Assembly: GCA_905178155.1 (NCBI GenBank)
Contig: CAJINV010000001.1
Location: 8,879,642-8,943,641, forward strand
Source: Amoebophrya sp. A120
Lineage: Eukaryota > Protista > Dinoflagellata
Direction of reading: 5' to 3'
DNA length: 64,000 nt
The notes under the pieces were generated by a model. The model saw only the letters and a program-made list of their open reading frames with translations. It made no database searches and had not been told where the DNA came from. Position numbers and translations under genes: made by a program. Positions within the stretch are counted from its first letter, which is position 1, and each line of letters begins with the position of its first letter. Shown here in pieces: positions 16,434-40,700 of this stretch.

Positions 16434-18535
16434 GGACACGAAATAAAATACGGCCGATTTTGTTGACAATGTTGAAAGGCGGTCCTGATCTACATAGCGA
16501 AATAAAAAGCAGCCGAAGCGAAATAAAAAGCAGCCGAATTTCTCTACTTGGGCGACACGAAGGGAGAAAGAGAATAAAAGCCAGTTCTTCGGTTTGGCTT
16601 GCGAGACCGCATTTCTTCGCGAATGGACCAAGTCGAATCGAATTTCTTTTCATCGTGTGTTTTTTTTTTTACACAGAAAATGAAACACCTTGCTTTGTCA
16701 CGCTCACGACCAAATTTTTTAACAACACCACCCTAAGCAGGGACCACAAGCCACTTACAATCAGAATGAGAAATACTTGCTTGCAAACATAACACTTTTT
16801 CAAAAATTCTGCTGATGCCACCTTATCTTCCAAGACGTTGGGCTCCGATCTCGCATTAAGAATATACCCCAGAAAGTAGTAGCAACCAAAAGAAAAGAAC
16901 CAGAGCGGTCTTCCCTTCGCGCCAATCCTCCGTCGAATTTCACCGCTCGGCGATCTTTTCGGGGTCTTCTGCTGCAGCGGTGCATCGACCGCCTTAATAT
17001 CTCGTGTACCTAAAGTCAAAAAAGATTCCTCCGAAAGTAAGTATCTCACTGCAGCAACGAAGACCCCGAGAAGGGAACTGGAGATGCATCTGCATTTGCA
17101 TTTCACTGTTCTGATGGGGCTAGTTGCTATAGAGTACCTCCTCCGCAGTATTTTTGTATCTCTATCTTCCTTTACGATCACAGATGGGAGCCAGAAATGG
17201 CTGTGGTGCAAGTGTAACTTCTACGACTAAGTGCAAAAATATCGAAGCAAAATGGTCAATAAAATTCTTCAAGATTTACCATGAACATCATCAAGACAAC
17301 AAGCCTCCTCGGGTGTGTGGTCCTCCCTTCCGACTTTCTTTATATGAGAACCACCGCCACGCAGGAGTTCAGCTGTGTTTTTTTCATAACTTTATTTTTA
17401 TGAAAGTACTACAATAACAATAAACCCAATTTTTACGATTATGACGAGTAGTTCTGGAACAGGAATTTTCGATAACAAACAGAGCAGATAGGAAAACTAC
17501 CCAAGAAGATCAAAATGAAGACTAGAGCCTTGTTTCTCCACCTCCTTATGAAGACCATTCCATCCACTCTTGGCCACTATCTGCGAGGGTTCGTTGGCGT
17601 CGGCGTTTCAGTAGCTAGTAGAGTAGCAGATCCCGCTGCGGATTTCCTGCTTTAATACAGCTACCGTCGTGTGAACAACGTCAACGTCAGAGCCGTAAAG
17701 TAACCCAAAGAACTGAAAACTCAACTTTTCTCAAATTTGTTTCGCACTTTATTTTGGAATTTGTATAGGATACTATTTGATGCAATAGAAACATCCTTCT
17801 CCTTCAAAAGTAGATACAGCTGATGATGTTGATATGATAAGTAGCTGCTTGCTACAACAACCAAGTATATGGCAACAATTATCGATATTTGGATATTGTG
17901 TAACTTTGTTCATTATGGAAACAAGAACGCATAAGATTATTCATAGAGTAAGCCACTTGGTTCTAAAAAGTTTTTTTCAAATAGAGAGGTTAAGCAGGGT
18001 TCACGTCAAGGTTTTGAAAATCCTAGTACAACTTCGACTTCCACTTCGTATCCGACTTGTATGAAATTGCAAACAACAAAAACATTTGAAAGATTTGTCA
18101 CGAACTGGTCCATGGGAAATCACGAGAATTGCGCGTGAGTGACGCTCTTCGACTTGTTTCGGAGTCGGAAAGATCAAAAATTCTATACTTATCCGAAAAG
18201 TCCGCGTTTGTTGTTGTTCAGCAGCGTGGTAATGTGGAAGAGTGCTGATGAGAGTTGAGATGATATTTCAGAAGCACAAACACAAATATTGTCTACGTGA
18301 GCGATTTTTTTTCGACTGGCTCGTCGAGTGTCCTCGTATTAAGAGCATCTTGAGGTACGCAAAGATTGCTCATGGTCCGATGTGCAGCATTCACATTATA
18401 CAACTTACTTACCTTTTGCCATCGCGCTCGACAAAAAAATGAAAAATTTCACCCAGCCTCATACACAGAACAAATAGTATAGATCGATATGAAAAATTTG
18501 AATTATCTTTTCCCCTAGTAGCACCCAACCACAAC

Positions 18536-20918
18536 ATGGTCTTTTTTCTCTCAGCCCGCGCGAAACAAAAATGTTGCGTCTTAACAACTGTTCTGAGTCT
18601 CCATGCGTTGCTAGTGCATGCCAGCATGCCGATACACGACGGTTGGTTTTGGTTGTTGTTGGGCCTGGCTGTGTTCAACTACCTGGCCACGGCTTTGTCC
18701 GATCCAGGCTACGTAGGAGGGATACCCTCAAACCGGGACACGGACACGACACCACCCGGTCTTGCCGACGACGTCTTCAATCCGTCACCTACGTATCCTG
18801 CGGAAAAACATCCCCGCCCCAGAGGCAAGATGATACTTTTCAAGACCACGCGTTTCTGCTGTAGTCGCGGGCGATAAGCTTGGCTCGCAGTTTAATGGTG
18901 CGGTTTAGCTATTGCAGCCGCGTCAAAATTGATTCTAGCATTCGTTACTGATTCTAGCATTTTGACTTTGAGAAGCAAGCTCCCAGAGTGATAGTATTAG
19001 AAAACGCTTCCCACGGGGCTGCGCATGAGAAACATTTTAGGACTGCAGCTTTCTATGAGGATTAACAAGAGTAATATGGCGTGGGGCCGGTTTCATACAG
19101 GATACGCCAGCGATGTTTTCCACGGCAAGGCAGCAGCTGCTGGTACGCAATGGAGGCGAAGAAGGAGATACTAGAGGAGTGATACAGCAGGACGCGAAAA
19201 CATTTAACGGCCAGCATGTTGATAGTAGAAGTACAGCAGCAGAAGTCTCCTTAGGAGGCGGAACACGACTGTCACAAAACGAGGGCAACTATACAGTGAG
19301 GACCGGCGATGGCTCGTCATCGACATCGTCGGCAGGAGGAGCTTCCGCTACGCTCTATGATGCTACCACGACATCGCAAAAATGGTGCAGCATCTGCAAT
19401 TGCGAGCAAGCTCTGCGCACAAAACACTGCCGGGACTGTCAGCGCTGCGTTAGGACCCACGACCACCACTGTCCGTGGGTAGACAGCTGCGTCGGTGAAG
19501 GAAATCGTGCCTTTTTCTTTGCCTTCATCCTGTTCCAGTTTTTGGAAACAGCGCTCTGCATGTCCCATGTCGTGCGCCGCGTAGTATTGAGCACCGGCGG
19601 AGGTAGGGACACTGACATGTATAGCGACGCTGACGAAGAGGGCTCGAATAGCTTGCTGCTAGGGGAAATAAATGTGGTGGATGGAAAGAAAGTGGAGATG
19701 AACCGGATCGATCTCGATGCACAGTACAGCACACAGCAGGAAAAAATGCTAGACGAAGCAAAGCGAACCAAGATGCTGATGACAGAGGGGCACCACCCAG
19801 ATATAAGCAGCAGCGCTGTCCGTGGCGCACTGCTTGGAAAGCATTCTCAGAGTTACCAAGATGAACTCTATGCGGGGACCACGAGGCCGTCAACGTCGGG
19901 AATGGTTGTGGCCCAGGAACTACAACAGGTCCGCCAGCACTACGACGCCCTTTCCTCGGCGAATCACGGCACGTCCAGAGCGCAGGTATCGCCCACCGCT
20001 ACCGTCAACGACATTGCGCTACTGCTCGTGCTCGCGATTATTGCGTTTGCACTTTTCCTCCTTTTCTGCACTCACGTGTATCTGATATCCGCCAACCTGA
20101 CGACGTATGAAATGACGCGGCGTCATCGGGTGCCGTACCTGCAGAATCTCCGTAAGGGCTCGCCGTTCAGCGAAGGCTGTTTCCAGAATTGGGCCGCATA
20201 TTTACTGCTCGGCCGCACCCCCTGCTGGCGGGCATCGCCCTGGTACCGCAGGAAAGCCGTGGCGATAGTGAAGAACATCAACGGCTGCTGCACTTCATCT
20301 TCCCGGTTTCTCCGCTGGTTGATCTTCCCGAGAACAGGAAACAACAGAGCAAACAGACTAATCCACCAGCGAGCGCTTGTTCTTCCAAATAACCGCGCAA
20401 CAGCACTGCAGGAAGGCCGTCGCGGAGGAAGCCCATCTTGGTCCATAGTCGAATCCGGCTCGACTTCCACCACAACATCTTTGCATCTTCAGGGCATACG
20501 CAGCACAGGGATCACCCCTGGGTCGACGGAAGCGTGCAATAATTATGGGGAAAAGGACGCGCTAAATCGGTACGATTCTCGTTTTCCTGGTGACGAGGCT
20601 GTGGAGGCTCCTGCTTCGATATTTATTCAGGGGGAGGATGCCGGCGGGAGCGGGACGCCAATAATGTCCGGAGAGGATGCCAATATTCTTGTATCGGAAC
20701 AAGCCGGACACAATGCGGAGACTGTTGACTTTGAAACGAATGCAGAGGCGGCCGAAGAAGGCCGCATGGAAATGCATTTATTTGTCGAAACCGAGAACTA
20801 CACGATGAACATGGCTTGTGCCCCGGACCCGGTCACAGGACACATAACCTGGACTCCGGGCACGGCCCACGTGCCGTTTTGTCTCACAATATGCAACCCC
20901 TGCGTCTACGACCAATGA
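18536..20918 (+). CDS. DHHC-type palmitoyl acyltransferase
   Basis: Contains CSICNCEQALRTKHCRDCQRCVRTHDHHCPWVDSCVG and the TTxE motif (NLTTYE). Exon 1 carries TM helices and ALSDPG. One intron at ~18793-19105. Confidence 0.9.
18794..19104. mobile_element. Decayed TAT..ATA introner-like intron in the DHHC gene
   Basis: Left arm tatcctgcggaaaaacatccccgcccca versus reverse complement of the right arm tatcctgtatgaaaccggccccacgcca (19/28). It resembles the TIR at 38739-39017. A GT..AC cut (18793-19105) restores ..PTPAM.. in frame. No intact 5-bp TSD. Confidence 0.55.
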
Positions 20919-21630
20919 CAAGAGAAACAAGACGAAAAAAACCCCCGCAATATTCTTGCAACAGCAACTTGCTTTTGATTTCAAACTGAAGAGTACACAA
21001 ACGCAGAGACAGAGAGCGAAAAGAAGAGGCTCAGTTTCCTGCGCGTTAGCTCGTTCACTTATTAAGTAATTTGTGCTACATGAAGGTGGGAAGAAACTTC
21101 CTCTCTCGGTATCATGATCGGTCAGCCACTGAGCAGAAAAACAAGCCGAATTTTTCGCAGATGATGATCAGTACAGTTTTACGTTTACTCGTCGGTGATA
21201 GATGGTGAACACGAGGAAAACAGAATCGGTGGACGAAAGACGAGGCACCGCTTTATGATATATTCCGGCGGAATATTTTCTTGCCGTAGTAGAAGCATCT
21301 GTCTAAGAATGATCTCTTCAACATGCACATAGAAGTCTCATGTGGAAGATATGGTAATATTAGTGAACAGCGAGAGTCCCCATCGTGCGCTAAAAGGAAC
21401 TGGTCCTAAACGCTTCTCAGACGACACTTTCTTATTTCTGTTTCTGGGTCAACCAGATTTGTCAAGCCTCTCGAGTAAATTTAACTTTTATGTTTTGAAA
21501 GTTTCTCAACCGAAAAAAGAGTAATCAGTGTATATCAAGATCACGTTCTTCGAGTGCATAACATACAGACCACTAATTTTTATTCCCAGCAAGACCATCT
21601 TGTGGTAAGTAACACACAACAAGCCAAAAG

Positions 21631-24352
21631 ATGTCAGCGCAGTACCGAATGGAACCGGAGGAGCGGTTTGCGAGTGAGAATAACGGGGAAAGGGAGGGAT
21701 TGATAAAATCGTTATCGTCTGCCCCAAGTGGCCTCCGTTCGTCTGCAAATAGCAGATCGAAAAATCGTCGCGGTGCTAGCGAGGATGAAAACGTATTTTT
21801 GTACGACGACGAGACAGGAGCTATCAAAGGCAATTTGTCTGTTTTACACCTTGGGTTATCCCATTTCTTTTTCTTGACATCTTCGCTTTGTATGTCCGCC
21901 TGTCTTTGCAGCGGGTAGGGGTACGGGTTTGCGGTGCTGGTCCACAAGGAGCACGACCTTTCGATTATCTACCCTTTTGCAGCACCTATCCTCGTGTGAT
22001 ACATATAACTGCTGAGGACCTTCTACAATATATGAGGTGTGTCGAGATAGGGCCCATAGCTTGAAAAAACTGCACTTTTTCCTTTGATAGAAACTGATCC
22101 TGACGCTGAGTTGGAGCGCAAGGCCAAGTGGGTGCGTTGCCTTGTGGGCGGCTGCTGTGGCTGTCTACACATCTTTCTGTTGATGGTCTGGACTTTGTTG
22201 ATGCTCGGTTTAACTATCGGCATCCCCAAGTTGGAGGACAGCGAAGTAATTTCTGATTTCCTCGGCATTACGGACGACTTCGAAAATCAACTGCCTGCTG
22301 CGTGGAAAAAGGCAATCGGGCACCCACCTGCTACGGCCTCGTTTGCGCAACTAGCGGAACAGGAAGATGTGGATGTGGTCGCGAGCGATCTCCTCGGGCA
22401 GGCTGCTGCATCATGGCCTGCTACGCAACATGATCTTCAACGCAAAAGGTTTTTGGAAGCCACTGGAGAGGCGCAAGAAGCTGAAGATGCACAACAACCG
22501 TATCAGGTGGCGGCGATGACAACAAGCGCCCTGTTGCAATTGGGCGAAAAAGCAGGGGGTGGCGCTGGAGCGCCCCCGGGCACTCCTGTTTCGAAAAATG
22601 TCAAGGACATCATAGATGCTGCGTATGCTTGGCACGGAAATTTACCATATTGCAGTCCTACTTGAAGTTCGTGCTAAGTACTCCGCGAATCTGCTGGGGA
22701 AGGCTACAAGCATTCTCTTCGTGCATGATCAGAATTTATTTCAGTTCCTTGTTTGTCGTCTTTCCTGCTTGTGGTATTTCGTTTTGAGGCAAAGGCTTCT
22801 TTTTTCTGTACGAAAAGTGGCAGTTGTGATCACTTTGACTTTGCATATATCGATGATGGCGGGCACAGAGCAAAGTGTGTGAAAGTTTCCAAGCATACGC
22901 GCGCGCCATTCAAGAACGCGGCTGGGTACGTATTCTGGGTCTATGGTTTCTACGTGGTTTCCCCGAGCGAGTCGAACCTTCTCATCTACGTCTTCGGCTA
23001 CCTTTACGAGTCCTTCAACAAGTATTTCGGTCCGGGCAGCTGGTTTGACAAATCCATTGACGTGTACAAGAGGGGCACCGATAACCCGCCCAGCGCCAAG
23101 CCTGCGTCTTTTTTGGAGCAAGAAGAAGAACTGGGCGCCAGCTCATCTCCCATAAGTCACAAGGAGCTTCTTGTTGATGAGCAGGGGAACGAGGGCCACG
23201 AAAACCAGATGCTGCAAATCGAGCAGCTTGACCACGCGCCGCAGCGGCAATCAAAGTCGTACTATGTAGACCAGGTCAAAGATGGCAACATTAACTTGAA
23301 ATTCGGCAAGAAAATGCAGACAGCTGCGGGTATCAACATTGCTTCCATCGTGCTTCTCTTCATCGCAGTCGTCTGCCTGATGCGCCTTGGATGTTGCAGC
23401 TGCGGAGGTCCGAAGAAATATGGCAAGGGATGGTGTGTCACCATTGTCTTCTGGCTTGCGGTATGAATATTTTTTTGGTTTATTTTTTTATTCTTGACGT
23501 TGACGGCATTCACATTGAAGACGTTTTTCCGGTAAATTGACATATTGAATAAGATGAGCATGAGTCTGCTTAACTAAAATCAAGATGGTGTCGCATACTG
23601 TATGTAACTCTCGAAAAGCAGGCAAAATGATCTTCATCTTTGCCTTCCCGTCCCGTCTCATCTTGCTGGCGTCGCTCAGGTGGTCATAAGAGGTGGCACA
23701 ACATCACATTCCAATTTGATCTCCACAACCACAACAGATTGCATGCGACCTGACACTGTTGATTCTGCGGGGATGTATTCCCGGCTCGGTAAACGATGTG
23801 CTAAAGCCCGTGCAGTACTCCGTGGAGAAGTCCTTGGGAGCCGTGCTCGAAAAAGTGCAGGATCTAGATCTTTCGGGGACGCAGTGCGTCTCCGGATTCC
23901 AGTGGGGGCTGTACCGATTGATCGAAAGCGCGTCCCAAGGCGACCCCGACGCGGAGGCTGACCTGAAGCTCTTTGCAGGCGACCAGCCTGGGGCCGTGGC
24001 ACAGTTGAAGGCCTCCCGGTTGGCGAGCATCGCGGCGGCAGGCCCGGGCGCAACGGAGGAACAGGTGTATGCTTTGTGGACGGACCCGACCGCGGCGGCC
24101 GGTCGGACTCAGCTGCCGAATTTTCCGATTGACGATACCACGTGCAAGGAGGTCAATCAGGCTCTCAAGATTGACCTACCCGCACTGTACAGCGACGTTG
24201 TGACGCCGATGATCCTCAGCCCCGGGCCAGGGGCCACTATCGCCGAAATTCTCGGCTACGTGACCTTTTCCCTGACGATCGTGCTGCTGCTCGTCGGCAT
24301 GTTCTGCTACGGGCAGCTGAACCCGATGGCCGCCGCCGGGAAGAGGCGGTAA
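21631..24352 (+). CDS. Multi-pass membrane protein of unknown function, 4 exons
   Basis: In-frame joins via GC-AG introns 21830-22090 and 22621-22788 and a GT-AG intron 23461-23737. About 4 hydrophobic helices with Cys-rich juxtamembrane segments. Confidence 0.7.
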
Positions 24353-25562
24353 TCGTAATTCTATGTATATAGGTGAAGCTACGAAAAAATGATGAATCTC
24401 GGGATTATATTTTTTGCGTGGGTCTCCAGGGCTGTAAGAACTACATTGAAGGGATACATCCTTCCTAGAAGACACACAACTGCGCCCGGTTCTTTTTCTT
24501 TACCTCTCACAGTTGGCAATCCATCATTATCATCAACACGTTTTGCGTCGCCCATGGCTGTGTCTGACATCACATATTGACACTCACATGATATCTAAGA
24601 GTCAGATGTTGAACATAAGTAGTAGCTGTAGTAGTACACGTCGACCACACTTCTGCCTCGACTACAACTTCAAAATTAACTTTTACGTGGACACGATGCA
24701 GTGACACCAAATTTTGTACATTCTTGTAGCGTTGCGTGTTGGGGTGAGTTGTAAATAGTAATAGTTATAGTGTTGCTTTCTATTTGTGCGCATGAATGAA
24801 GATGACACGCAGAGCCGCTGAGTAAGTACTTAATGTCAATTCATCACCGCGACAAGTAATTTTTGCAGCTCGCCCTGATAAACATCACGCAACATAAGAC
24901 TCAAACACAAACTCAATAAAGACCGCCAATAAATTTTGTGAACATTCACATTGAATGATTGATGAGCTTCAGCAGAAAAACATGATAAAGAATGCGAACA
25001 GAATGAAAAGCACAAGCTAGTACTTGTATGCGAATCGCTGTGCCATGTTGTTCGCGTTCGCCTCACTCTACTCCCCAGTGGTCCAGCAGCACGTGTCGTG
25101 TGAGAATCAGGGCATAGAAGCAGTTCAAGAGGAATCTTAAACCCAATGTCTTCAACGCCATTGGTCATGTGCTTCCACTTCTCCACAAAAACGATTACTT
25201 CTAGTACGATTGAAAAACGTTAAACGTTTCTGAGACGGGAGAGATGAAGCGTGAGGGAGAGAATTAAAAAATAGGGCTTTCAACTACTAGCTTGGCCGTC
25301 TTGCAAAAATAAGTATTGGCTCACCTATAGAGCCATGCTGTCACTCCTATTCTTCTTCCCGATTTGAACTTGAGCAGGCACATGCACATCTTTGGGCTGC
25401 TACAATCGAAGCAGCACAATACCGGAGCGATGTAGCGGCTTGGTCGTGACTGGGCGCGCAGCCGAGTCCTGATCTCGGGAAGCTACGCGAACAGCACTTA
25501 TAATTGACTGCGCATCTTATGGTCGTCCGTGAAATTAAACCACTACAGATCGGTTAGCGAAA

Positions 25563-27043
25563 ATGGCGCCGGGAGCTGCCCGCGGATGCCGCTTCGCGAT
25601 TGTCGCAACCTGCGCCATCACCGTGGTTTCCGGTTTTTCCGCGATCAAAACACGTAGCACTGCCGTAGGCGCATCTGCCAAGACGTCTCGCAGAGCTGCC
25701 AGGAGAACAACTGCGACAGCTCAAGTAGCAAGAAGTAGTGCACGCGCCACTCAAAGTTCTAAAAAAGAGCTGTCCAAGAACACAGCAGTGGGAACAAAGC
25801 CCGCTCCCAGCGTTGCGGAGCAGTGCGCGGAAGATGCAGACTGCTTGCCACCCCCAGCAGCCACGCCCATTGCGGAACTCGAAAAACTGAAACCGAGCGA
25901 GCTCGAGACGCTGCGGGGAAGTGTCGAGGACAAATTGGCGAAGGCAAAGTCCGATTTTGAGCAGTTGCAGGCGAAGCTGGCGAAAGCGCAGACCGAGCAC
26001 GCGCAGAGTCTGCAAGCTTTGAAGCAGGAGATTGGCGCGAAAAAGGACCAGGCCCAGGAGACGCGGCTGGCAACCCGCGAGACCGTGGCTGCGGACGCTG
26101 CCGCCGGCGCGAAGGAAGAGGAAAACCTGCAGAACTTGGACGGCGAGAACGCAAACCTCCGCAAGGACCTGCAGGCAAAGCGGGCTGCGGTCAAGCAACT
26201 CGTAGCAAAGCAGCCCTGCGGGAAGTGCACGGCGCACCAAAGCACCGCCTTTCTCACGCTCTGGTCCTCGGTGCGGGACGCGCCCGTATCAAAAGGAAAA
26301 ATCCCCCCTCCGCATATTGACAAGGCACGTTTTCGAGAATTTCTATTGCTGATTTGTGACCACAAACCGCCTCTGTGTTGCATGAAGGCAACTCCACAGG
26401 CTCCGCCGCATTCTAGCGGCGGTTTGTCGTGCTGTTGTACCCACAGCGTAGACGTCTGGCATGCAAAGCGCCAAGGCCAAAGCCTGTCTTCTGAGGCTTA
26501 ATATGGGTCTGTTGTCCTCGCCAGCAAGACAAAGCCGATTTGTGTACGCAAATCCAGCATCACCTGGCAAAGCCGATGAGTTCGGGCTGCTGACTGTTCC
26601 ACTCCCTCTTAGCGGTACCAGTTTCGCCCACGCCCACGCAAATCCAGCATCACAAGCTTCGTTTTGATATTGGGAGGGGGGATTTTTCATTCTGATAGCC
26701 CGCGAAGGATCTCATGGCCGAAATTCAGGCTGGTCAGCGGGAAATCCGGAACCTGGAGGACGATACCAAGGCGCTGGAGAAAAAACTTGTGCGCGAGGGG
26801 AAGCGGTTCGATGAGCGCACCCAGTTCCTGCGCACCAAGGTCGACGAGGCGGAAGCGAAGGCGGAGGTGGCACCGCCGGGGTTGGCGGCTGAAAAGTCGG
26901 CCGGCGTACGCTTGAATGACGCCCGGCAGGTGCGGCTGAAAGCTCGAAAAGCGGAGAACGACGACCTGCGAGGCCGCTTGGATGACCTGGCGAAAAAGGA
27001 GACTCGAATCCAAGAGCTCAACGCGGAGTGCGGCTGCAGCTAG
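25563..27043 (+). CDS. Secreted coiled-coil protein, 2 exons
   Basis: N-terminal signal-like segment and heptad-rich K/E/A/L sequence. Removing the element at 26287-26697 plus one TSD gives ..VRDAP|AKDLMAEIQ.. Confidence 0.75.
26287..26697. mobile_element. Introner (TIR element acting as an intron), 411 bp
   Basis: TIR tatcaaaaggaaaaatcccccctcc / ggaggggggatttttcattctgata (23/25). TSD gcccg at 26282-26286 and 26698-26702. Internal direct repeat acgcaaatccagcatcac. Confidence 0.9.
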
Positions 27044-27763
27044 CAAGTGCCGCTGACATTCCGTCCCGCCGAGAAGTATACATCGTGCTGCAGGTGCAAA
27101 AAAATGAAAATGTCAAAAAAAAATGACGCACTGATCGTTCAGTTTCTGTTTTCCAGCGCTCGTCTACATAGTACTTAGCCGAAACTTGGATATTCGCTGC
27201 ACTACCTAGAGGGAATATCCTGTACCTATTTCATGTTTCGTGTAACTCATTCTTGAACTGCTGCTGCTGGGGTCGCAAAGCAGTGGCGAGAACGGTGCAA
27301 TCCCAGTGCCCTTCATCAAACAGATGTTCCTGTTCGACTTTCGTGCCGTGGAATACTAACCGTTGCGTCTGCGTGGCGCGACTAGAAAAGCACATTTCGT
27401 CCTCGACGTTCGTTCTCTTTCTTTGTCTAATTTACTGTCAGAGGGGATGGAGTAGGGTCGTTTGGAATGCGCACATCATGCAGAAATATATGAATCGAGA
27501 GTGTGAGGAACGACGAGTGAGGAAGTCGCTTGAAGACAAGGACGATTGTCGGTGAATGAAGTTGCCGTGTGAGAAATTATTTCGTTCATCATGAGGCTAT
27601 GATGCAGATGCAGACGACGCGCACAGATCCAGATGACCTCGGACGACTTACTTCAAAACCAGCGAAGTGGATGTCTATGAATAAAAGATGGACTTCCTCG
27701 ATGCTCCGTCTGTACTAACGCCGTAGAAGTGGTCGTGGAGCTTGAGCAGACCGATCTTTCATC

Positions 27764-30700
27764 ATGAGCGTTGCGGTTGACCGTGCTGCATCCGCGTTCG
27801 CGGCCACAGGGAGCAGCCCAACGTTGGAGCAGGTTCCCGGGCAGCAGCCGGCGTTTATCGTGCCGCAAATGATGGGTTCGCTCCAAATGGGTGGCAGCTC
27901 GTCTTCCACCGCACCGAGCCACGTAGTGGGCGCTACTTCGTCTACCAGTGCAACCGCGACAGCAAGCAACAGCGAAATAACGGGTGGAGCAGGCGCGACG
28001 CCTTCCAGCGGGGCGCAATACTTGCAGCACCACAGCCATCTGATGCCGTCAACATCAACAGGTGGAGCGGGACAGCTGGTGTCAGTCGGAGGAGCTAATA
28101 GTACAGCCGTTTGCACAGCGGGCCCGCCACCAGCACCGTTAGTGCTAGCAGGAACCAGCTCCGCGGCCACCGCTGGCGGTGCGAACGCTGCGTCTTCAGG
28201 AGACGCGAGCAACAATATTCTGGTTGCCGTTCGTTGCCGGCCGTCGCTACGGGGTCTGGACGAGGCTGCCCCGATCGTGAAAGTGCTGGACGACAGCATG
28301 GTGATTCTGCAGGACCCGGGACAGGAGCTGCAGGGAGACTACCTGCGGTTGCACAAGAGCCGGGAGCGCCGCTACAAGTTCGACTACGCGTTCGGGGGCG
28401 AGGCAAGCACAGAGCATGTGTACCGCAAAACGGCACGCAGCCTGATTCCCTCCATATGGCTTTCTCAAACGTTACATTCTCAACTGTTACACGAATCTGT
28501 GATGCAAGAACAGCAAAAGGGAAAGCGGGAAGATTGCGCGTTTTGCATTACAAATTTGGAACGGAATATAATGCTGCTTAGCCCTTCGACAGTTTGTCAT
28601 GCGAAGTACCTTGATCGCGTGGAGGCTGATGGCGATTTTGCATGACAAATTCTTGGGACAGTTGAGAGCGTAGCGTTTGAGAGCTCCATACTCCATTTTG
28701 AACGGGTACAACGCCACCGTGTTCGCGTACGGAGCCATATCAAATGCAAAAATGTCTGGGTCTGGAAACTTGTAATGCTAAAGGTGAATGATAGACGTAC
28801 TTCAGTGCGCAGCTATGCATAACAAATTTTCTGGCTGCCATGTCTTACGTATTCCGCATGGCAAACTGCGTTTTTGCATGACAGGCGCGAGGGCCTTTTC
28901 GTGCCTATGCAACGCAGATTCTCGAGTCATGCCAGACGAGCATGACAAACTTGCATTCTTCCAGACCCAGACATTTTTGCATTTGATAAGCCACCGGCGC
29001 GGGCAAAACGCACACCATGATCGGGGGGGACGAAGACGCGCACCACCAGCACCACACGGGAACAAAAGACCCCGGGATCATGTTTCTGATCCTACGCGAT
29101 CTCTTCTACCTCGTGCAAGAGCAAAAGCAAAAAAGCGCCAGCGGGGGTGGTGGGGGAATAAATGGTGGTGTACTAGCGGGGGTGGACGAGACGAGTGTAG
29201 GAGATGATGATCCAGGTGGAGGAGGAGGCGCAGCAGCTGCTCCAGGTGGAAAAACGTCAGATAAGAACAAAGACAAGTCGATTGCTGTAAAATGCAGTTT
29301 CTTGGAGGTCTACAACGAGAACATCAGAGACTTGCTGCTGCCGTCAGCAAAGGCCGATGGCTTGGAATTGCGCGAGGATCCTGTCAAGGGTTGCTACGTC
29401 GCCGGTCTGCAGGAGCTGCCTGCCCAGTCCGTCGATGAAATCATGGCGCTGCTGCACCTGGGAAACAAAAATAGGTACGGCGGCAGAGATATTAAGCAGT
29501 ATGTTTTCTCGATCATCAGTAGGTCGAGTAGATTCAGATCCTACATACTCGTTTGCAACTGTATCTGTTGTTTTGTTCGCTGTACGTACATAATCATAAA
29601 TCTCAATAACGTCCATCCAATCATGGTAGGACGACGGAGGGCACCGCCGTGAATGAGACCTCTTCCCGATCACACGCGGTTTTGCAGTTGCATGTGGAGG
29701 AGAACCTTGGGACCGGGCAGACTTCCATCGGGAAGCTCTCGCTAATCGACCTTGCTGGGTCGGAGCGCGCTTCCAAAGCGCTTTCAAAGGGAGACCGCTT
29801 GATTGAGGCATCCAACATCAACCGCTCCCTGTTGGCACTCGGAAACTGCATCAATGCACTTGTGGAGAAGAAACGTCAGAGCTTTGTCCCGTAAGAAGCG
29901 TTTTTGATGTGTTTACCGAGGCATGATGAAGAGCTTCGAGTAAGTTGCATAGTCAATGGTAACATGATGCTTTACAACAACTTCGTCATCGAAAGTATTA
30001 TTTTGTTCCGAAGCGAAAAGCAGCTCCTGACCATGTCTCTCTGTTTCGCAGAAGCAGAACATCTTTCACCAGTGTTCTGCGAGTGTGTGGTCTTCTATCA
30101 AAACAACTACCAAATATTTTCCGTTTCATCACTTTGCAGGTACCGCGACTCGAAGCTGACTCGACTGCTGAAGGACAGTTTGGGCGGCAATTGCCGGACC
30201 TGCATGATTGCTTGCATTTCTCCCACCGCAAGCCACTACGAGGAAACAAGCAACACTTTGAAATACGCAAACCGCACGAAGAACATCAAGACGTCCCAGC
30301 ACTACCGGCGGAATTTGGTCACCACGTCTGCCGAGGAAACCGATGCTCAGGTCGCGGAATACGCTCAAATCATTGCCGAGCTGCAGAAGGAAATCTCCGA
30401 ATTGAAGGGCAAAGTGCACGTGCAGCCAGGACCGACAACAACGTCGTCGTATGCAAACATCAAAGACAGGCACGGCGGTGCAGGTGTGTTGACGTCGTCC
30501 TCGTCCGCAAGTGCAGCTGCCGTCCCGAAGGAAGCGGAGGTTTCCGAAACCGCGATTCTGGCATCGGAGAAGGCTTCGGAACGGTGGAAGACCGAGATGA
30601 TGTCAACGTTGGAAGAACGGGTCAAGCTTCAGCGACAGCTCATGGAGACAGAGACGCTGCAATCCCAGCTGTTGCTCGACCTGGAAGTGTCCAAACGTTC

Positions 30701-33006
30701 AAAGGAAAGCTGTCAGCAAGGTACTTACTCGTTCTGCTCAAGAACATACTGTGGATTTGGATACGGCAACGGCATTACATATTTTTATTTGCATCCTTCG
30801 TCACTGTTGTCACGACTCGACTGAGGCGGTTGAAGACCAGCACAGGGAAGGAATTCATAATCATTATACAAATTTCTGTACCCTCAAGACATGTTGATGA
30901 ATGACAGCACTTTGCACTTTTCACCCTGCTTATCGAACATCGATCTTCGATTTTAATTGTGCACGACAGGCACCGATGCCGACAAGGACTCGACGAGCGC
31001 CGGCCCCTCGCCCAAGAGCAGTGTCACCACCACCAAACTTCTCGCCGAGCACGAGGACCGACGTACCAATTTGCGCGCTGCGCTGGAGGAAAACCGAAAG
31101 AAAAGCCAGAAACTGCAATTGCAGCTGAAGGAGATCGCGGACAAGGACCTCCGGGCGTTTCTGGAGCTGCTGTACCGGGCACAGGTGCTCGAAGTCGAGC
31201 GCATGGAGCTGGACCACGTAAACGCAATGAAGCGTCAGGTCTTGGACCAGAAGGACCAGGATCTCCGTACTGGTTGCTTGTTTCTTTTCCGCTTCGTTCG
31301 TTTGTAAAGACAATTGTCAATTCATTGCATTGCTACTGGCATTGTTTTTGCGAGGGGCAGTCTGAATTCTGAAGGCGACAGCGACAGCCTTGATGACGAA
31401 CGAGAAGCAAAACCACCGATTTGTTGAAAATATCATGAACAGAAAATCTCCGTCACCAGCTGGACCTCCGAAACGAGTACTTGGGCAAGTTGTCGGGAAA
31501 TCTTTCCGTAGAGGACAAGCAGATGTTGCCGGGGCACGTGAGCCTGCTGGAGTCCACCATCACCTCGCCAACGCAGTGGAAACGACAACTCTCCAAAGAA
31601 CAGCTTGACGTACAGGAAAACGGCACATCGCTCGCGACCGACGAACTACAGCTCGTCGGCGCGCCGGTAGGACAAGCTCTTATTCTATGATAGATCATGA
31701 TCTGCATTTTCTGTTGTAGTTCCGATCACCTTGATGCTTCCTTGATAATTGCAGAATATTTTACTTTCGCTGTCACAACATGGAAACTTCTTCAAAACAT
31801 ACTCTTACTCAGCCCCGGTTTGCGTCCATTCCCGGGGTGGATGGGCTGCACGAACCAACGGACCCGTCAAGTCCCTCCGATGTGAAGGGCGGTATTGATT
31901 GGAGCGCCATCGAGGTGCCGCGAGCGAGCCGCATCAAGGGTGTTTCCCAGGAACTCGCGGGGCTGAACATCTTTGATCCCACGCCGCGCGACTTTTCCCT
32001 CGTAGACCACCATGACGCCGCTCGTGGCGGCCAGTTGATGTCCGGCTCGCTGGGAGCACATCATTCGCACTCGTCCTCCGCGTTGGTAGTTGGGGGGGCG
32101 AACAAAGAGAACGTGCGAACTGTTGTGAAATTCGACAACGCCGCATCTTCCGCTCAGCTGAAAAATGTAGGCGCGGCGGCGAGCGGCGGCTCCCTGGCCA
32201 GCTACCGCGGTGCGGGGTACCGCTCCCAGAGCGATCACGGGGCCGCTCTGGTACAACAGCTGCACAGCAAGACCGAGCACCACAGTAGCGCCACGACGCG
32301 GCCGCCTCGGAGTTCCCCCAAACGGCCGGACACCGGTCCGGTGCACTACTTCTCCCATCTCCCCAGCTCCTCAGGCGGAACGCGGTCGTCTCACGGTCCG
32401 CAGAAGAGCCGACCGAAAACCGACTACCAGCCGCAGCTGCGCTACGCACAGCGACACCAGCAGAACCACTGGAAGCACCTGCAACGCATGAAGGACACCG
32501 CCTTCCACAACGAGCGGCTGAATCCACCTCTGCAGCGCGCCGGAATCAGTTTCAAGCAGCACGTGGTGAACAGCGTGAATAACCAATACGGTAACAAACC
32601 CAATGCTGGTGGGCCCTCTGCAGGTGGACCCCACGCGCAGCCGCAGCACAGCAGCACGAACATACTGTCCTCGCACAGTACAACTACTTCTACACATCAC
32701 GCCCCGGTAACGTCCACCATCAGTACAACAGGGAACAGCGGACTCGGGAGTAGCGCAAACAACACCGGCGTTGGTGCTAGTGCGGTTGGCGCTAGTGCCA
32801 CGGGTGGTGTCGTTTCGGGTAGTGCCACGGCGAATGGCACACGAATCCAACCGCAGCATCACCCGATCGTGAGCAATTACGCCCAGCCCTACCACCAAAT
32901 CGCGTCCAAACGAAAGCCGCGGTCCTCGGTAGGGAACGCCACACGGCTTGCAGGAAAACTTATCGTAAATTCCAACGCCGGAGCAGGTCGAGATTTCCGC
33001 TTCTGA
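27764..33006 (+). CDS. Kinesin motor protein, kinesin-8 (KIF18/KIF19)-like
   Basis: Spliced motifs: [112 protein letters not shown]. Two introners plus GT-AG introns at 29475-29629, 29891-30139, 30721-30969, ~31267-31442 and 31667-31812. Confidence 0.93.
28455..28690. mobile_element. Introner in kinesin, 236 bp
   Basis: Imperfect ~33-bp TIR tatggctttctcaaacgttacattctcaactgt / acagttgagagcgtagcgtttgagagctccata. TSD ctcca at 28450-28454 and 28691-28695. Removal restores LIPSILNGYN. Confidence 0.88.
28738..28988. mobile_element. Introner family A copy 1, 251 bp, in the kinesin P-loop
   Basis: Perfect 30-bp TIR tatcaaatgcaaaaatgtctgggtctggaa. TSD agcca at 28733-28737 and 28989-28993. Removal restores AYGATGAGKT. 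Confidence 0.95.
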
Positions 33007-34643
33007 TAAAGAACCTGAAGAGCAGGGCTTTTCCGCTGGCCGGATTAAGGCCCCGGGTCATAATTACCCAGTCTGGAATCACCCTGCTTGGAGCGTAGCA
33101 TGTTCGTATTGTGATTTCGTTGCTGAGAGAGCACGGGCCTCGACGCATCAAATACAAATCTGAATTTTTATCCAGTGTAGGTGTAAGTGAGGATGTCGTA
33201 CTGTTACTACAACGTTGTCCTTGTCCTAGTATTCCCAATATTTTCTAAATCCGAAACGTGTTTGAATCCAATAAAAACTTGTAACTGTATTACATCCTGG
33301 GCTCTTGTCTAGTTTCACATTTTTGTTTGGCCAATACTATACCATTTCTCTTTTCGAGCTGAAGATGTAGTTTGTGCTTGTTGCGCCGTGTTTGAAAAAT
33401 CACTATCACATGAACTCTCAGATTGCTTTGCTTGACTTCCGCCGTTTTTTGAAGCATTCACTTTCCAGTCACTCTGTATTTCTAGGGGCAAAGTCTTGAC
33501 AAAAAGTAGTTGGAGTAAACCAAATAGATTGTTAACTCTTGGGCTTTGCGCCTTCGTCTTCGTGCTGGGCGTCACGAGCACGCCTGGCGTCTGACCATTC
33601 AAATTGATGAGATCGTGTAGTAGTCGTGAGTATGTGAAGTGTTAGCGACTGGTGTTAAAGGTTTCCAACTTTTTTGCTGATGCTGAATAGAAACCGGTAC
33701 CAAACAAAAATTTGTAGCCTCGTAGCTGAGCTGCACAAGATAGCAATACAGAAGTGGAGGCATATTCATTTGAGTGGTCGAGCACTAAGCAGGTTTCTGT
33801 TTTGCCAAAACCTACTGAACGGTGTCCGTGTCCGTGCCGGTGGTGTTAAACTTGTTCGTGATGCATTCGTATTTGCTTGTGCTTCTGTCGGCTTTCTTAT
33901 CTGTCGTTCATCTGTCATCATCGTGTTTCTCGGTGGCGAAAAAGCAGACGCAACTGTTATGATGATTTTCACCTGCAGAAGCAGAAGTCGCATAGCGTAC
34001 AAAACCGTCAATATCTAAGACAAAAAATAATTGAAAATCGTTGTCGTTCAACTTCAATTTTTTGGTCTCCTCTGCGTGCCATCGGTATCGTCCAGCTTCT
34101 GTGTCGCTGTGGTTCTGGTTGTGGTCCAGTCGTGCATTGCGTTTTCTCGTCCAATGATCGCACTCGCTTCGTTGTCCGTCCATTGTTTGTCCGCAAGCTT
34201 TTTATGTAGTGTGTGAGGTGTGCCTCGGTGAAGTAGTACGTAGCTGTTATTTCAATAATGACTAGCACGACCCACTTACACTTTCATTTTCAACCTCCGC
34301 CTCTGTCCTGCTCCACTCAATCCAACTGATTTTGATACGAACAAACTTCAGGACCAAGCATACAACTCAACCCACACATTCATAGTCGAAGTCGTACGCA
34401 AACGCATGCAGATCGATGCTTTCGACATGAACTTGAAATATTTACGTAAAAATTCTGCCCCGGAACCGTCCGGGGAGCAGAATGAAGTATCTCATTATCA
34501 CAAGCCAGCTTTTCATCTGACTGGAACCCGTACTAGCATACCTCGAAGATGAATTGGTGTCGTGCAGCACGACGTGTGCAAAAATATATCTCTGCTTGAT
34601 GTACATGGTCGTAGTGTAGATCTAGACCTCTATCTAAAGCACC

Positions 34644-36799: not shown

Positions 36800-37140
36800 A
36801 AAGAAACCGGCCCCTCCGCCCGGAGGGGGCGGCTTCTTTAGGACCCGGAAGTCATTTTTTTTTACCAAAAGCGCCGACTTTCGTTGTTTTCTGGGTACAA
36901 GGTAGCGGTCCGGCTATCAAACAAACCGCCCCCTCCGCGCGGAGGGGCCTGTTTCTTTCTGGGCCGCCAGCGGCGGAAGAAGAAACCGAAAATAAGAAAT
37001 CGACCCCTCCGCGCGGAGGGGTCGATTTCTTATTTTCGGAACGGCGCGCGCAGCGCGCCGAAGAATTTTTTTTGTTGTTGCATCCAGCACTGGCCTCGGA
37101 AACAAGTCGTGGGCCACGCCGCCGCGCGGAGGCGAGGATT
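36800..37140. repeat. Cluster of related GC hairpins including a 54-bp perfect palindrome
   Basis: Core cccctccgc(g/c)cggagggg at ~36811, ~36930 and ~37004, with a variant at ~37118. Perfect palindrome at 36986-37039. Confidence 0.8.
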
Positions 37141-37773
37141 TCTTGTTTTCCCAGTGCGGAGCAAGAGCAACGACAACGACGGGCCATTCCTGAGGAGGTG
37201 GGCGCCGCGGTTGCCTGGTTCCTTCCTTATGGGGCATAGCGCGCGCGCACTGGCGCCGTGGGGCTGCGCTCCTTAAGGCGCATGTAGTGTGGTGCGTGCG
37301 TTGCTACGGGCCTTTTGTCCGAGGGTAGCGCCTGTCGTGCAGGCGCCGCTGCATGGGATTCCGCTCCTGAGCTCGGTGGCGACTCGCGAGGGGCTAAGGG
37401 TATGAGCATGCATGGGACACCGGCGCCACGACAAAGTAAGCCAACCAACGGGTTGCGTCTTTGTTTGAGGCGCGCCACGTTTCGCCTTACCTTTTTTCGT
37501 TGTGTTGTTTCTGGAAAATCAAAACTCATGGTCATGCGGCAACTTTTTGCGCCCGGCAGTGTAGGGGTCGACCTTCGTTGGAGTTAACTCTGCATTAGTG
37601 GCGCCCGGCTTTCTTACAAGCTGCCGGCCGCCTTGTGCGATGGATTGGCGACGCACTCTCCCCTGCCCTCGCCAAGGCAGCCGCAGTTTCTCTGGCGCCG
37701 GGCAATCTGCTTAAATTATTGAAGTATCTGCTTCTACCACCTGATACACAGTACGCTCGAGGAGCAGTTTATC

Positions 37774-40700
37774 GTGTCCGAAACCATGAAGGAACTTCTG
37801 ATGACCCGTGCGGAGGTGAAACTCTTGCAGATGGAAGACGCATTGAACGACGCGTGGCGGGTGAAACTCTACCTGGGCCCGAACAAGCTTCCCGAGGGCC
37901 GGCTGAACTGGGGCGAAATGCGCTACTCTACCTCGGGGTGGATGGGCCTCGTACCCTTCGTGTGGACCAGCCGCCTGGTCGCGGACGTGGGGGTGCGGTG
38001 GCTGGCGCCGCAGAAACAAACGCTGAACCACTGGCTGCAGATTTTCTACCTCGCCGAGGAAATCGCGCAGAAGAAGGCGGAGATCCGCATGCTAAGCACC
38101 TCGGACGAACAGGACGAGCGCATGGAAAAGAAGTTTTTCGGGAGGTACGAGTTCGACGTGAATCTGCTCTATGTCGACCCCCGCGAGCGACAGATGCGGC
38201 TCAACGAGAAAATAAAGAACCTGCAGATCGAGCAGCGGCGTCCGACTGTGCTGGAGCAGCAGCAATTCGCGGAAGAAACCCTGCTGTTGAAGCAGTCCTG
38301 GCCCCAGCAACTCGCGCAGTTGTCGGAGATCGTTTTGCGGGAGCACTGTTTGACCAAGTTCCGGTTGGAAAACGCGCCCCTGCAAAATCCGTCGGGCGAG
38401 CGGTTCCTGGCGACGCTGCTGAACCGGTGCATCGGGTCGCAGACGGCGATGTCCGGGTCCCTCGAACGGCTCACGTTCACGAACTGCGAGCTGGGGTTGC
38501 ACAACCTCAACGCACTCTCCGGGGCGTTGTTCCGCAGCCACGGCGCGGCCCTGCGCGAACTCAGCATCCACTGCACGGGGCGCGCGGACCGACTGGCGTT
38601 GCCGCAGACGCTGCTGAAGTTTCTGCCGAATCTGGTCCTGAAGAAGCTGCAGCTCCGCAACAACGGCATGACGCCCCTGATGCTGGAACTCCTCCTCCGC
38701 GGTGTGCCTCGCCACGACCAGCAGATCCCTGAGAGCGATATCATTTGTAAAAACGTCCCCGCACCAGAGTTGTGATGCAGATTTGCAATGACAGAAACAT
38801 TTGTAATGCGTATCTCCATGAGAAGTGTTTCTAGTCGTGTTTTGGCATTTGTAATGCTGTAACCAGGATAAGCAGATGGATTCGTGATGCGTGTGTCCTT
38901 GCTAACCTGCACTACACTACGGAATGCTATTTGTGATGCGTGAGTCCCAAAACTTCTAGGTTTGTGTTGCAAAATCCCCACCTTGACTATGGGGTGGGGG
39001 CGTTTTTACACAGGATAAGCGAGCGCGACATCCTCTCCGCCGAGGCGGTGAAGCGCATCCGGTACGTGCAGAAGGTGGCCGAGGAGGAAAACAAGGCCTT
39101 TTACGAGGACGACGCCGAGACGCGCGCGATGCTGATGTTGGACGCCAGCCCGCCTGTAGATACCCTGAACGGCGGGAGCCTCCACGACTTGCCCGCCGAC
39201 CCGGACGCGGACGAGTTGCACCTCCAACTGGCTAGTTTCCAGCCGCCCGAGGACCACGATCCCGGGCGGAGACTGACCGAGGAAGAGCTCCTGCACTACG
39301 CCACCTTCGAGCAGGAGCTGCAACTGTTCCTCGGAGACATCCCGGAAAAAGTGTTCCACCACGGCGATATCAACGAAACGGTGCAAGTGTTGCAGTTGCG
39401 CGAACAGCAGGAGGAGGAGGAGCGGCTGTTGTACGAAAGGAAAATGGCAGGGTACAGCAACCGCAGATCTTCTACTCCGTATGGAGGAGGTGGTGCTGGT
39501 GGCAACGAGGACTACAACTACTACCCGGAAGGAGGCGTGGACGGCGTCGCCGGTCAAGATGTTGAGCAGGAACTGCTGCAATATGGCGGCGCGGGAATGG
39601 CGGGCCGGAAAAGTCGTCCTCTAGGCCAATTGGAGGCCGACAGCACAGGAGCTGCTGTGCCAGGAGGTGCTGGCTACAACAACTATGCAGTCCAGGAGCA
39701 ACAGGGGCAGTACAATGAGTACGAAGATGAGGACAACATGACAAACGATCCCTACAGACCGCGCCCCCGGGTCGTGGCCGGGCAGGACGCGAAGCGAATG
39801 CGGTTCCAGTCCCACATGGACAACCAGCACTACCTGGAGCAAACCACGTATGGCACACGGCACCACGACGCGCAGTCGCGGCGCCTGCACGCCGCGACGC
39901 TCGCGGCCAAGCAGGCGAACAAGCCCGTTATCGACGGACTCGACGAGGAGATCGCCGCCACCCGAGAGCAGGGCGCCCTCGCGCAGCCGCTCCAGGTGTT
40001 CCCCATGACCACCACTGTCACCGGCCAGAAACGGCACCGGATCCGGCTCGGACCCTCGCAGGCGCCGCGCGGGATCCTGACCGCGCCCTTCAGTGCCCTG
40101 GAATCTTTGTGCCTCACCCAGAACTACCTCGGGGACGAGGGTGTCACGGTGCTCTCGCGACACTGGCACAAGAGCACGTGCCTCAAGGAGCTACGGCTGG
40201 ACTACAACCAAATCACCTACAAAGGGGGCGAGCACCTCGCGGCGAACCTGATCCACGCCCCGAAGACGCTGGAATTTCTTTCCCTGAAGCACAACAACCT
40301 CCAGGACGACGGGATCGAGAACTTCGCGCAACGCAAAACGCTGTTCGGCGTGTCCGGGGTGAAGTATCTGGACGTGCGGGACAATAACGCGAACGTGGTG
40401 AACCAGGAGGCGCAGTTCAACGGGGCGGTCAAGAAGCGGTTCATGATCGCGCAAAAGAACTTCGACCAGGCGAAGCTGGAGGCGCAGCTCCTGGCCCAGC
40501 AACAGGCGGAAGAGGAGGAGCAGCGCATCGTGCTGCTGGCCCAGGGCAAAACGCCGCTCCCGCCGAAAGCGCCACCGAGAAGTAAAGAGGATGACAAGCC
40601 GGTAGTCCTGGTCAACGGAATGCCCTTCCGGGACGACCACATGGAACAAAGGGTTTACATCACCAACAAGGAATTCCCCGTCATCTACACGCCCCCCGCG

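What the first reader, a model, noticed from the sequence alone, without database searches (positions are those of the whole stretch)
28696..29020. Introner inside the kinesin Walker A motif is a built-in test of splice precision
Seen: the element with a perfect 30-bp TIR interrupts FAYGA|TGAGKT. Precise removal of 256 nt (element plus one TSD; all sliding boundaries non-canonical, e.g. TA..CA or AT..CC) gives the canonical kinesin motif. Cutting one base outside each TIR (AT..AA) keeps the frame but inserts an Ala (AYGAATGAGKT). All other motor motifs are intact, which argues the gene is functional. Inference: excision here is exact and independent of GT-AG.
Basis: partly seen in the sequence, partly recalled or inferred. 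Interest (0 to 1): 0.8.

Follow-up and report, generated by a model that had tools for sequence, protein, structure and literature searches.

The report
Transposon intron cut exactly from kinesin
A 251-base hairpin transposon inside the ATP-binding loop of a kinesin-8 gene of a marine parasite (likely Amoebophrya A120) is missing to the base from assembled transcripts although it has no normal splice signals; this kind of intron is already published, and neighbouring copies show the cut likely falls one base before and four bases after the element, likely made by a loosened spliceosome.

Summary
Observation confirmed. Element 28738-28988 (251 bp) has a perfect 30-bp TIR and a 5-bp TSD inside the kinesin-8 P-loop. 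A second element lies just upstream (28455-28690), leaving a 42-nt micro-exon.

They show the joint 28732>28989 (256 nt skipped); no +3, retained or exon-skipped joint is listed. Contigs hide rare forms, and three raw-read runs did not cover the gene.

All 6 of 6 TAT...ATA elements in 18400-29400 are removed as length+5. Three have decayed TSDs, and only one register fits all three: one base before TAT, four after ATA (chance 0.09). Here that is 28737-28992, AT..CC. One junction has no repeat at all, which argues against a reverse-transcriptase artefact.

The class is published (Farhat 2021, PMC7789003), which left the border unknown. I found no paper giving this register. This scan reported the same register earlier on other DNA of this genome (unchecked notes). 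The enzyme is untested: a relaxed U2-type spliceosome is my best guess (0.55), a hairpin-guided non-spliceosomal route the main rival (0.25).

The parts
28738..28988 (.). Introner element E2, 251 bp, TAT...ATA, non-autonomous TIR element
   Evidence: family copies at 54505 and 54821
28738..28767 (+). Left TIR, 30 bp, perfect
28959..28988 (-). Right TIR, 30 bp, perfect
28733..28737 (+). Left copy of the 5-bp target-site duplication AGCCA
28989..28993 (+). Right copy of the 5-bp target-site duplication AGCCA
28737..28992 (+). Most likely true intron (256 nt, AT..CC, phase 0 between the Ala and Thr codons of the P-loop); length shown by RNA, register inferred from neighbours
   Evidence: joint 28732>28989; register
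28455..28690 (.). Introner element E1, 236 bp, 53-bp arms 79% complementary, TSD CTCCA; removed as 241 nt (inferred intron 28454-28694)
28695..28736 (+). 42-nt micro-exon between E1 and E2, 14 codons ending in FAYGA (limits at the inferred register; equivalently 28691-28732)
27764..33006 (+). Kinesin-8 gene, 1256-aa spliced frame: 8 exons, 2 introners and 5 GT-AG introns (29475-29629, 29891-30139, 30721-30969, 31267-31442, 31667-31812)
28727..28732 (+). Donor-like hexamer GTACGG, identical to the donor used at 29475; no joint uses it
18794..19104 (.). Decayed-TSD element in an upstream gene; removed as 316 nt (311+5), registers -2 or -1
   Evidence: (X2 and X4)
21822..22089 (.). Decayed-TSD element; removed as 273 nt (268+5), registers -1, 0 or +1
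   Evidence: (X2 only, side 28)
22624..22897 (.). Decayed-TSD element; removed as 279 nt (274+5), register -1 only, no repeat at the junction (GT..CG)
   Evidence: (X2 only, side 30)
26287..26697 (.). Intact-TSD element, 411 bp; removed as 416 nt
   Evidence: (X2 and X4)

Best explanation
A small TIR transposon with a 5-bp target duplication sits in the kinesin-8 P-loop and is missing to the base from assembled transcripts; it is likely cut out of the pre-mRNA one base before its opening TAT and four bases after its closing ATA, likely by a loosened U2-type spliceosome that would read the element's own ends instead of GT-AG. Shown: the anatomy, the 256-nt removal in the dominant transcript form, length+5 removal at 6 of 6 elements tested, and retention of the element ends in DNA-like contigs. 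Inferred from three decayed-TSD neighbours: the fixed -1/+4 register. It removes five target-site bases in total, so any insertion with a 5-bp TSD is silent in the mRNA whatever the target sequence. Inferred and untested: the element's first TA takes intron positions +2/+3, as in this organism's GTA donors; the first A of the closing ATA (position -7) would act as an anchored branch point with the 3' cut set by distance; the TIR hairpin would bring the ends together before being opened.
For: Exact joints: 28732>28989 skips 256 and 28449>28691 skips 241, in X2 at depth 16.3 and X4 at 12.2; X1 record 1 and X4 record 3, 42 letters between the pieces. Element ends were defined. All 6 distinct elements that one search listed in 18400-29400 were removed as length+5. 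Allowed registers {-2,-1}, {-1,0,+1} and {-1} meet only at -1. If each cut were random among six registers, 20 of 216 combinations share any register and 4 of 216 share -1. That register puts TA at +2/+3, and 6 of 6 RNA-supported GT-AG introns here start GTA. Need for precision: retention stops the frame after residue 256 of 1256, and 49 of 49 homologues with a readable P-loop (of 120; 71 lacked the motif, many being short fragments) have a 4-residue spacer. Published context: most spliceosome proteins and U2, U4, U5, U6 found in A120, and 15% of its canonical introns carry the same repeat layout (PMC7789003, sections 10-11). Anchored branch-to-3' distances are known in other protists and yeasts (PMC2483917 section 9; bioRxiv 10.1101/2022.06.08.495308 passages).
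Against: The register rests on three elements; two of them are single contigs of one run with only 28 and 30 letters on the short side, and the chance of any common register is 0.09. At this register 0 of 10 elements end in AG, and the first base is G in 3, A in 4, T in 2 and C in 1. The predicted hairpin (z = -10) buries both the +2/+3 UA and the -7 A. U1 snRNA was not detected in A120 or A25 (PMC7789003). A donor hexamer identical to a used one lies 10 nt upstream and is ignored. A at -7 occurs in only 3 of 6 canonical introns, and in the elements it follows from how I selected them. No lariat, snRNA or inhibitor evidence was obtained.
Confidence: 0.55

Rival explanations
1. Same exact -1/+4 removal from RNA, but by a second, non-spliceosomal route: a nuclease-ligase that measures from the TIR hairpin, as suspected for euglenid nonconventional introns.
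For: No conserved first base and no AG at 10 of 10 ends. Very stable end-joining hairpin. A nearby good donor is ignored. U1 not found in A120 or A25 (PMC7789003). Euglenid introns with a TIR stem at fixed offsets are released as circles without lariats (review PMC11282704, section 6).
Against: The register lines the element's TA up with the GTA of all 6 canonical donors seen. Old elements with weak arms (9-10 points) are still removed at the same length. Canonical introns with the same repeat layout exist in A120 (PMC7789003, section 11).
Confidence: 0.25
2. Removal is exact but has no fixed register: the cut may fall anywhere within the duplicated target, guided by the repeat, and the three-way agreement at -1 is chance.
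For: 20 of 216 random combinations would also share a register. [quoted passage not shown] 3 legend; legend of Fig. S23).
Against: The junction at 22622>22902 has no repeat to guide it and is still length+5. The published variability is what an aligner would give at intact TSDs, where up to six or seven registers are equivalent; this last step is my inference.
Confidence: 0.1
3. The joined form is a reverse-transcriptase template-switch artefact, and the real mRNA keeps the element.
For: The site has the described signature: no canonical ends, flanking direct repeats and a strong hairpin (PMC10275267 passages). All RNA evidence here is presumably cDNA-based.
Against: Neighbours with 0, 1 and 2 shared letters at the junction are removed just as exactly. 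The joined form is the only one listed at the kinesin sites, in three runs from two samples. Retention would end the protein at residue 256, yet the motor is 79% identical to its closest homologues with motifs intact.
Confidence: 0.05
4. The element is excised from DNA in the transcribing life stage, as with ciliate internal eliminated sequences, and RNA splicing plays no part.
For: The DNA-like run (X5, sample S3) and the RNA-like runs (S1, S2) are different samples, so stage-matched DNA was not tested.
Against: X5 contigs run without a break from both flanking exons into the element ends (27400-28482 and 28965-33400). In the deeply covered gene, X2 contigs stop exactly at junctions (22094-22622), as expected if unspliced precursors coexist. 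From general knowledge, no germline/soma nuclear split is known in this group, so excised sites would be inherited.
Confidence: 0.03

Closest known systems
Introner elements among the non-canonical introns of Amoebophrya sp. A120 (Farhat et al. 2021, PMC7789003)
   Same: IR beginning TAT, then seven variable bases, then a run of A; 3-5 nt direct repeat at the boundaries; length near 240 nt; RNA-supported removal without GT-AG; closest named homologue is from Amoebophrya sp. A25.
   Different: The TIR here is 30 bp (8-20 nt described). The paper leaves the border position unknown or variable; here three decayed-TSD neighbours point to one register, -1/+4.
Euglenid nonconventional introns (review PMC11282704)
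   Same: TIR stem joins the ends at fixed offsets, TSD-like repeats, no GT-AG, mechanism unsolved.
   Different: Different offsets (stem at +4..+6 and -8..-6) and a pyrimidine|purine junction consensus; circles shown there, nothing tested here.
Non-canonical TIR/TSD introns of the tunicate Fritillaria borealis (as summarised in PMC11282704)
   Same: MITE-derived introns with non-canonical ends removed by an adapted spliceosome.
   Different: They keep preferred ends (AG-AC, AG-AT); here the first base and the last four bases come from the target site and vary freely.
TIR/TSD introners of Aureococcus, Micromonas and Symbiodiniaceae (PMC9860276 passages)
   Same: DNA-transposon origin; splice boundaries placed partly within the TSD.
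   Different: Those recruit GY/AG sites from the element or the TSD; this one needs neither.
Kinesin-8 family (KIF18A, KIF19, Kip3, PDB 7z2b)
   Same: The 14 best solved-structure matches are kinesin-8 entries or carry generic kinesin labels at similar scores; many homologues are labelled kinesin family 18/19.
   Different: Ordinary host gene; nothing unusual in the spliced protein.

Membership tests
Amoebophrya A120 introner element | Inverted repeat at both ends, starting TAT + 7 variable bases + at least three A | tested here: met
   30-bp perfect TIR with TAT, seven bases, five A; motif from PMC7789003 section 11
Amoebophrya A120 introner element | 3-5 nt direct repeat at the exon/intron boundary | tested here: met
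   5-bp AGCCA
Amoebophrya A120 introner element | Removed from RNA, with non GT-AG ends | tested here: met
   (runs are RNA by behaviour, not by record)
Amoebophrya A120 introner element | Repeated in the genome | tested here: met
   two more copies of the TIR family in the window; 147 and 104 DNA-like contigs leave the right and left ends into other flanks
Amoebophrya A120 introner element | Host genome is strain A120 | tested here: inconclusive
   no genome held; closest homologues 87-89% identical, one labelled Amoebophrya sp. A25; the motif matches A120, not A25; earlier unchecked notes name A120
U2-type spliceosomal intron | GT/GC..AG ends | tested here: not met
U2-type spliceosomal intron | U at intron position +2 | tested here: inconclusive
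   met only if the inferred -1 register is right
U2-type spliceosomal intron | Lariat intermediate and dependence on U2/U5/U6 | not testable with these tools
   no raw reads on the gene
U12-type intron | Extended donor consensus (recalled as RTATCCTT) and U11/U12 snRNAs | tested here: not met
   donor at the inferred register reads ATATCAAA; minor-spliceosome snRNAs reported absent (PMC7789003 section 10), not re-tested
Euglenid-type nonconventional intron | Stem at +4..+6 / -8..-6 and release as a circle | tested here: inconclusive
   stem offsets differ (+2 / -5); circles not testable
Kinesin-8 | Motor domain closest to KIF18/KIF19/Kip3 | tested here: met
   (one 86-aa exon as query; no tree built)

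The most novel reading that the evidence does not exclude
Amoebophrya A120 has a splice code written wholly in the transposon's ends: any TAT...ATA hairpin is cut 1 base before and 4 bases after, with no GT, no AG and no U1. The machine is either a re-wired spliceosome that measures from an anchored branch A or a new hairpin-measuring nuclease-ligase. The offsets add up to the 5-bp target duplication, so the transposons can land anywhere, even in an ATP-binding loop, at no cost to the protein.
Probability: 0.6. Interest if true: 0.75.

Novelty: new member of a known kind. Interest (0 to 1): 0.45.

Why it matters
The element itself is one of about 30,000 published for this organism, so the site is ordinary. 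It does give a clean case: exact removal where one extra codon has no precedent among 49 homologues and retention kills the motor. The fixed -1/+4 register turns a published open point ('border position remains unknown', PMC7789003 Fig. 3 legend) into exact predictions for the 5' cut, the 3' cut and the branch base. These can be tested with existing RNA-seq and with lariat or direct-RNA sequencing. It would also explain how a transposon family can spread through essential coding sequence, and how a spliceosome might work without U1 or GT-AG.

Tried and rejected
No whole genome is held, so the paralogue question and a genome-wide register count stay open. No RNA holder was listed on record; X1-X4 are RNA by guess and by behaviour. 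Raw-read RNA runs gave no test: X9 had 90 reads, all on the repeat end and none on exons; X10 had 2 reads on the element and X11 none. The +3 (AT..AA) product, retention, and skipping of the in-frame 42-nt micro-exon were looked for in the joint table, which was shown in full, and are not listed; rare forms would be invisible. In one search, 91 joints were not shown. GT/GC..AG rescue was rejected. A 2-bp TSD class for elements 18794 and 22624 (both show a 2-base repeat) was rejected: RNA shows length+5, not length+2. A weak candidate at 21489-22032 got no joint. A gene model to resolve the decayed element at 53837 was sought; the only hit, P0122, is an unspliced call that runs into the element and is uninformative. 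Frame checks on four elements outside the laid regions did not discriminate between offsets. An anchored A at -7 in canonical introns was inconclusive (3 of 6). A bulge-helix-bulge tRNA-type cut was considered from recalled geometry and dropped: it needs exon-intron pairing that a direct repeat does not give in general. dN/dS was not computed, because no orthologous DNA was at hand. Summed depth on the TIR in X5 was not used as a copy number.

Full report
Observation. The element is 28738-28988 (251 bp). Its inverted repeat is perfect over exactly 30 bp, and the 5-bp direct repeat AGCCA flanks it. Removing 256 nt restores FAYGATGAGKT in six equivalent registers, none GT-AG or GC-AG. Nearby GT/GC..AG pairs shift the frame or delete the P-loop. 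The region 28720-29010 folds at -132.5 kcal/mol, z = -10 against 200 shuffles. The window holds 6 TAT..ATA pairs with strong arms and a 5-bp TSD, against none in 10 shuffles. A second element, 28455-28690 with TSD CTCCA, lies just upstream and leaves a 42-nt micro-exon. The finding does not mention it.

The gene. Joining the RNA-supported exons gives a 1256-aa frame with P-loop, switch I, switch II and the other motor motifs; 8 of 9 patterns tried were found. An 86-aa exon finds three homologues at 87-89% identity, one labelled Amoebophrya sp. A25, then many proteins labelled kinesin family 18/19. Its best solved-structure matches are kinesin-8 motors. The motor region is 79%, 79% and 72% identical to those three. 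Of 120 homologues, 49 had a readable P-loop, and all 49 have four residues between YG and GK[TS]; 71 lacked the motif, many being short fragments. Retention of E2 stops the frame after residue 256, retention of E1 after residue 293.

Eleven runs were listed, none on record as an RNA holder; seven were laid. X1, X2 (sample S1) and X4 (sample S2) behave as spliced RNA: X1 and X4 lack five GT-AG introns of this gene, have no depth at 27400-27600, and match exons with 0 other letters. In one search, one X1 contig and one X4 contig have pieces ending at 28449 and starting at 28989 with 42 letters between, the length of the exact double-removal product. One search shows the joints directly in X2 and X4: 28449>28691 (241 skipped) and 28732>28989 (256 skipped), at depths 16.3 and 12.2. 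Its joint table was shown in full and lists no +3, retained or exon-skipped form. X5 behaves as DNA: depth is 25-38 outside the elements, and its contigs run from the exons into both element ends (27400-28482, 28965-33400), so no empty copy is evident. Limits: contigs drop rare variants, and the three raw-read runs had no reads on exons, so the error rate is unmeasured. No genome is held, so a paralogue was not excluded by search.

Where the cut falls. An intact TSD hides the register, so I laid reads over neighbours whose ends I had defined beforehand. All 6 distinct elements in 18400-29400 are removed as length+5. Three have decayed TSDs. Their allowed 5' offsets from the opening TAT are {-2,-1} (18794, runs X2 and X4), {-1,0,+1} (21822, X2 only) and {-1} (22624, X2 only, no shared letter). 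They meet only at -1, with the 3' cut four bases after ATA. Under random registers, 20 of 216 combinations share any register and 4 of 216 share -1. This is suggestive rather than strong, and two of the joints have only 28-30 letters on the short side. For the kinesin element the register gives 28737-28992, AT..CC, between the Ala and Thr codons. It places the element's TA at +2/+3, and all 6 RNA-supported canonical introns start GTA. At this register 0 of 10 elements end in AG and the first base varies (four of the ten were not RNA-tested).

Mechanism. Shown: exact removal in the dominant form, without GT-AG. Inferred: a fixed -1/+4 ruler whose offsets add up to the TSD, so the target sequence does not matter. 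Untested: the enzyme. I favour a relaxed U2-type spliceosome (0.55), because of the match to the GTA donors and because anchored branch-to-3' distances are known in Trichomonas, Giardia and Yarrowia (PMC2483917, abstract and section 9 read) and Entamoeba invadens (bioRxiv 10.1101/2022.06.08.495308, passages read). Against the spliceosome: the hairpin buries these bases, U1 was not found, and a good donor 10 nt upstream is ignored. A hairpin-measuring non-spliceosomal route is the main rival (0.25). Template switching by reverse transcriptase has the same signature (PMC10275267, passages read), but it does not explain exact removal at a junction with no repeat, nor the conserved motor.

Known or new. 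Farhat et al. 2021 (PMC7789003; abstract, passages, sections 10, 11, 12 and 16, and supplement legend passages read; figures and supplementary tables not seen, and Fig. S19-S25 or Table S4 may bear on the register) report 66,565 RNA-supported introns in A120, over 60% non-canonical, 29,850 repeated. Their A120 IR motif (TAT, seven variable bases, at least three A), 3-5 nt direct repeats and 240-nt mean length fit this element. They call the splice position relative to the hairpin variable and the border unknown. Passages of PMC12130899, PMC9860276 and PMC12005148, and passages plus section 6 of PMC11282704, add transposon diversity, the restriction of these introns to some strains, and the euglenid and tunicate parallels; none of what I read gives a register. 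Four searches found no paper stating it, but the library lacks most subscription journals. After I had recorded the register, a look-up showed that this scan had reported the same rule on other DNA of this genome: 7 of the 8 notes shown state or suggest a fixed cut position. These are unchecked notes and I do not count them as support.

Verdict. Observation confirmed; interpretation supported for the dominant transcript. It is a new member of a published class. The added value is the direct RNA check in an invariant motif and the register from neighbours. Interest 0.45.

Noticed in passing
window 11997-13258: About 1.26 kb array of palindromic units (periods 73, 125, 198, 249, 323) that gives hundreds of inverted-repeat pairs; looks like a satellite built of hairpins.
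   Followed up: partly
window 28957-28988: Raw-read run X9 has 87 reads on the right TIR that share one flank (agreement 0.98) and none on the kinesin exons: one abundant transcript elsewhere keeps a copy of this TIR.
   Followed up: no
window 54505-54765 and 54821-55085: Two more members of the same TIR family as E2, each with an intact 5-bp TSD, about 55 nt apart, leaving another micro-exon; not RNA-tested.
   Followed up: partly
window 53837-54110: Decayed-TSD element that would be a fourth test of the register; a 96% identical protein call (P0122) runs into the same element start, so a close relative likely shares the insertion.
   Followed up: partly
window 38739-39017: TAT..ATA element with TSD AGCGA in a long gene; its arms resemble those of the element at 18794-19104. 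Not RNA-tested.
   Followed up: partly
window 36800-37150: Non-coding stretch with several GC-rich palindromes and inverted repeats of a different kind, with 4-bp flanking repeats.
   Followed up: no
window 18400-27250: Neighbouring genes swap in depth between runs X2 and X4 (21336-25005 high in X2, near zero in X4; 25373-27207 the reverse), which may reflect life stage; contig depth is a poor measure.
   Followed up: no
window 19380-19490: The gene holding element 18794 has a Cys/His-rich stretch ending in DHHC, read by eye, typical of palmitoyltransferases (label recalled, no family search run).
   Followed up: no
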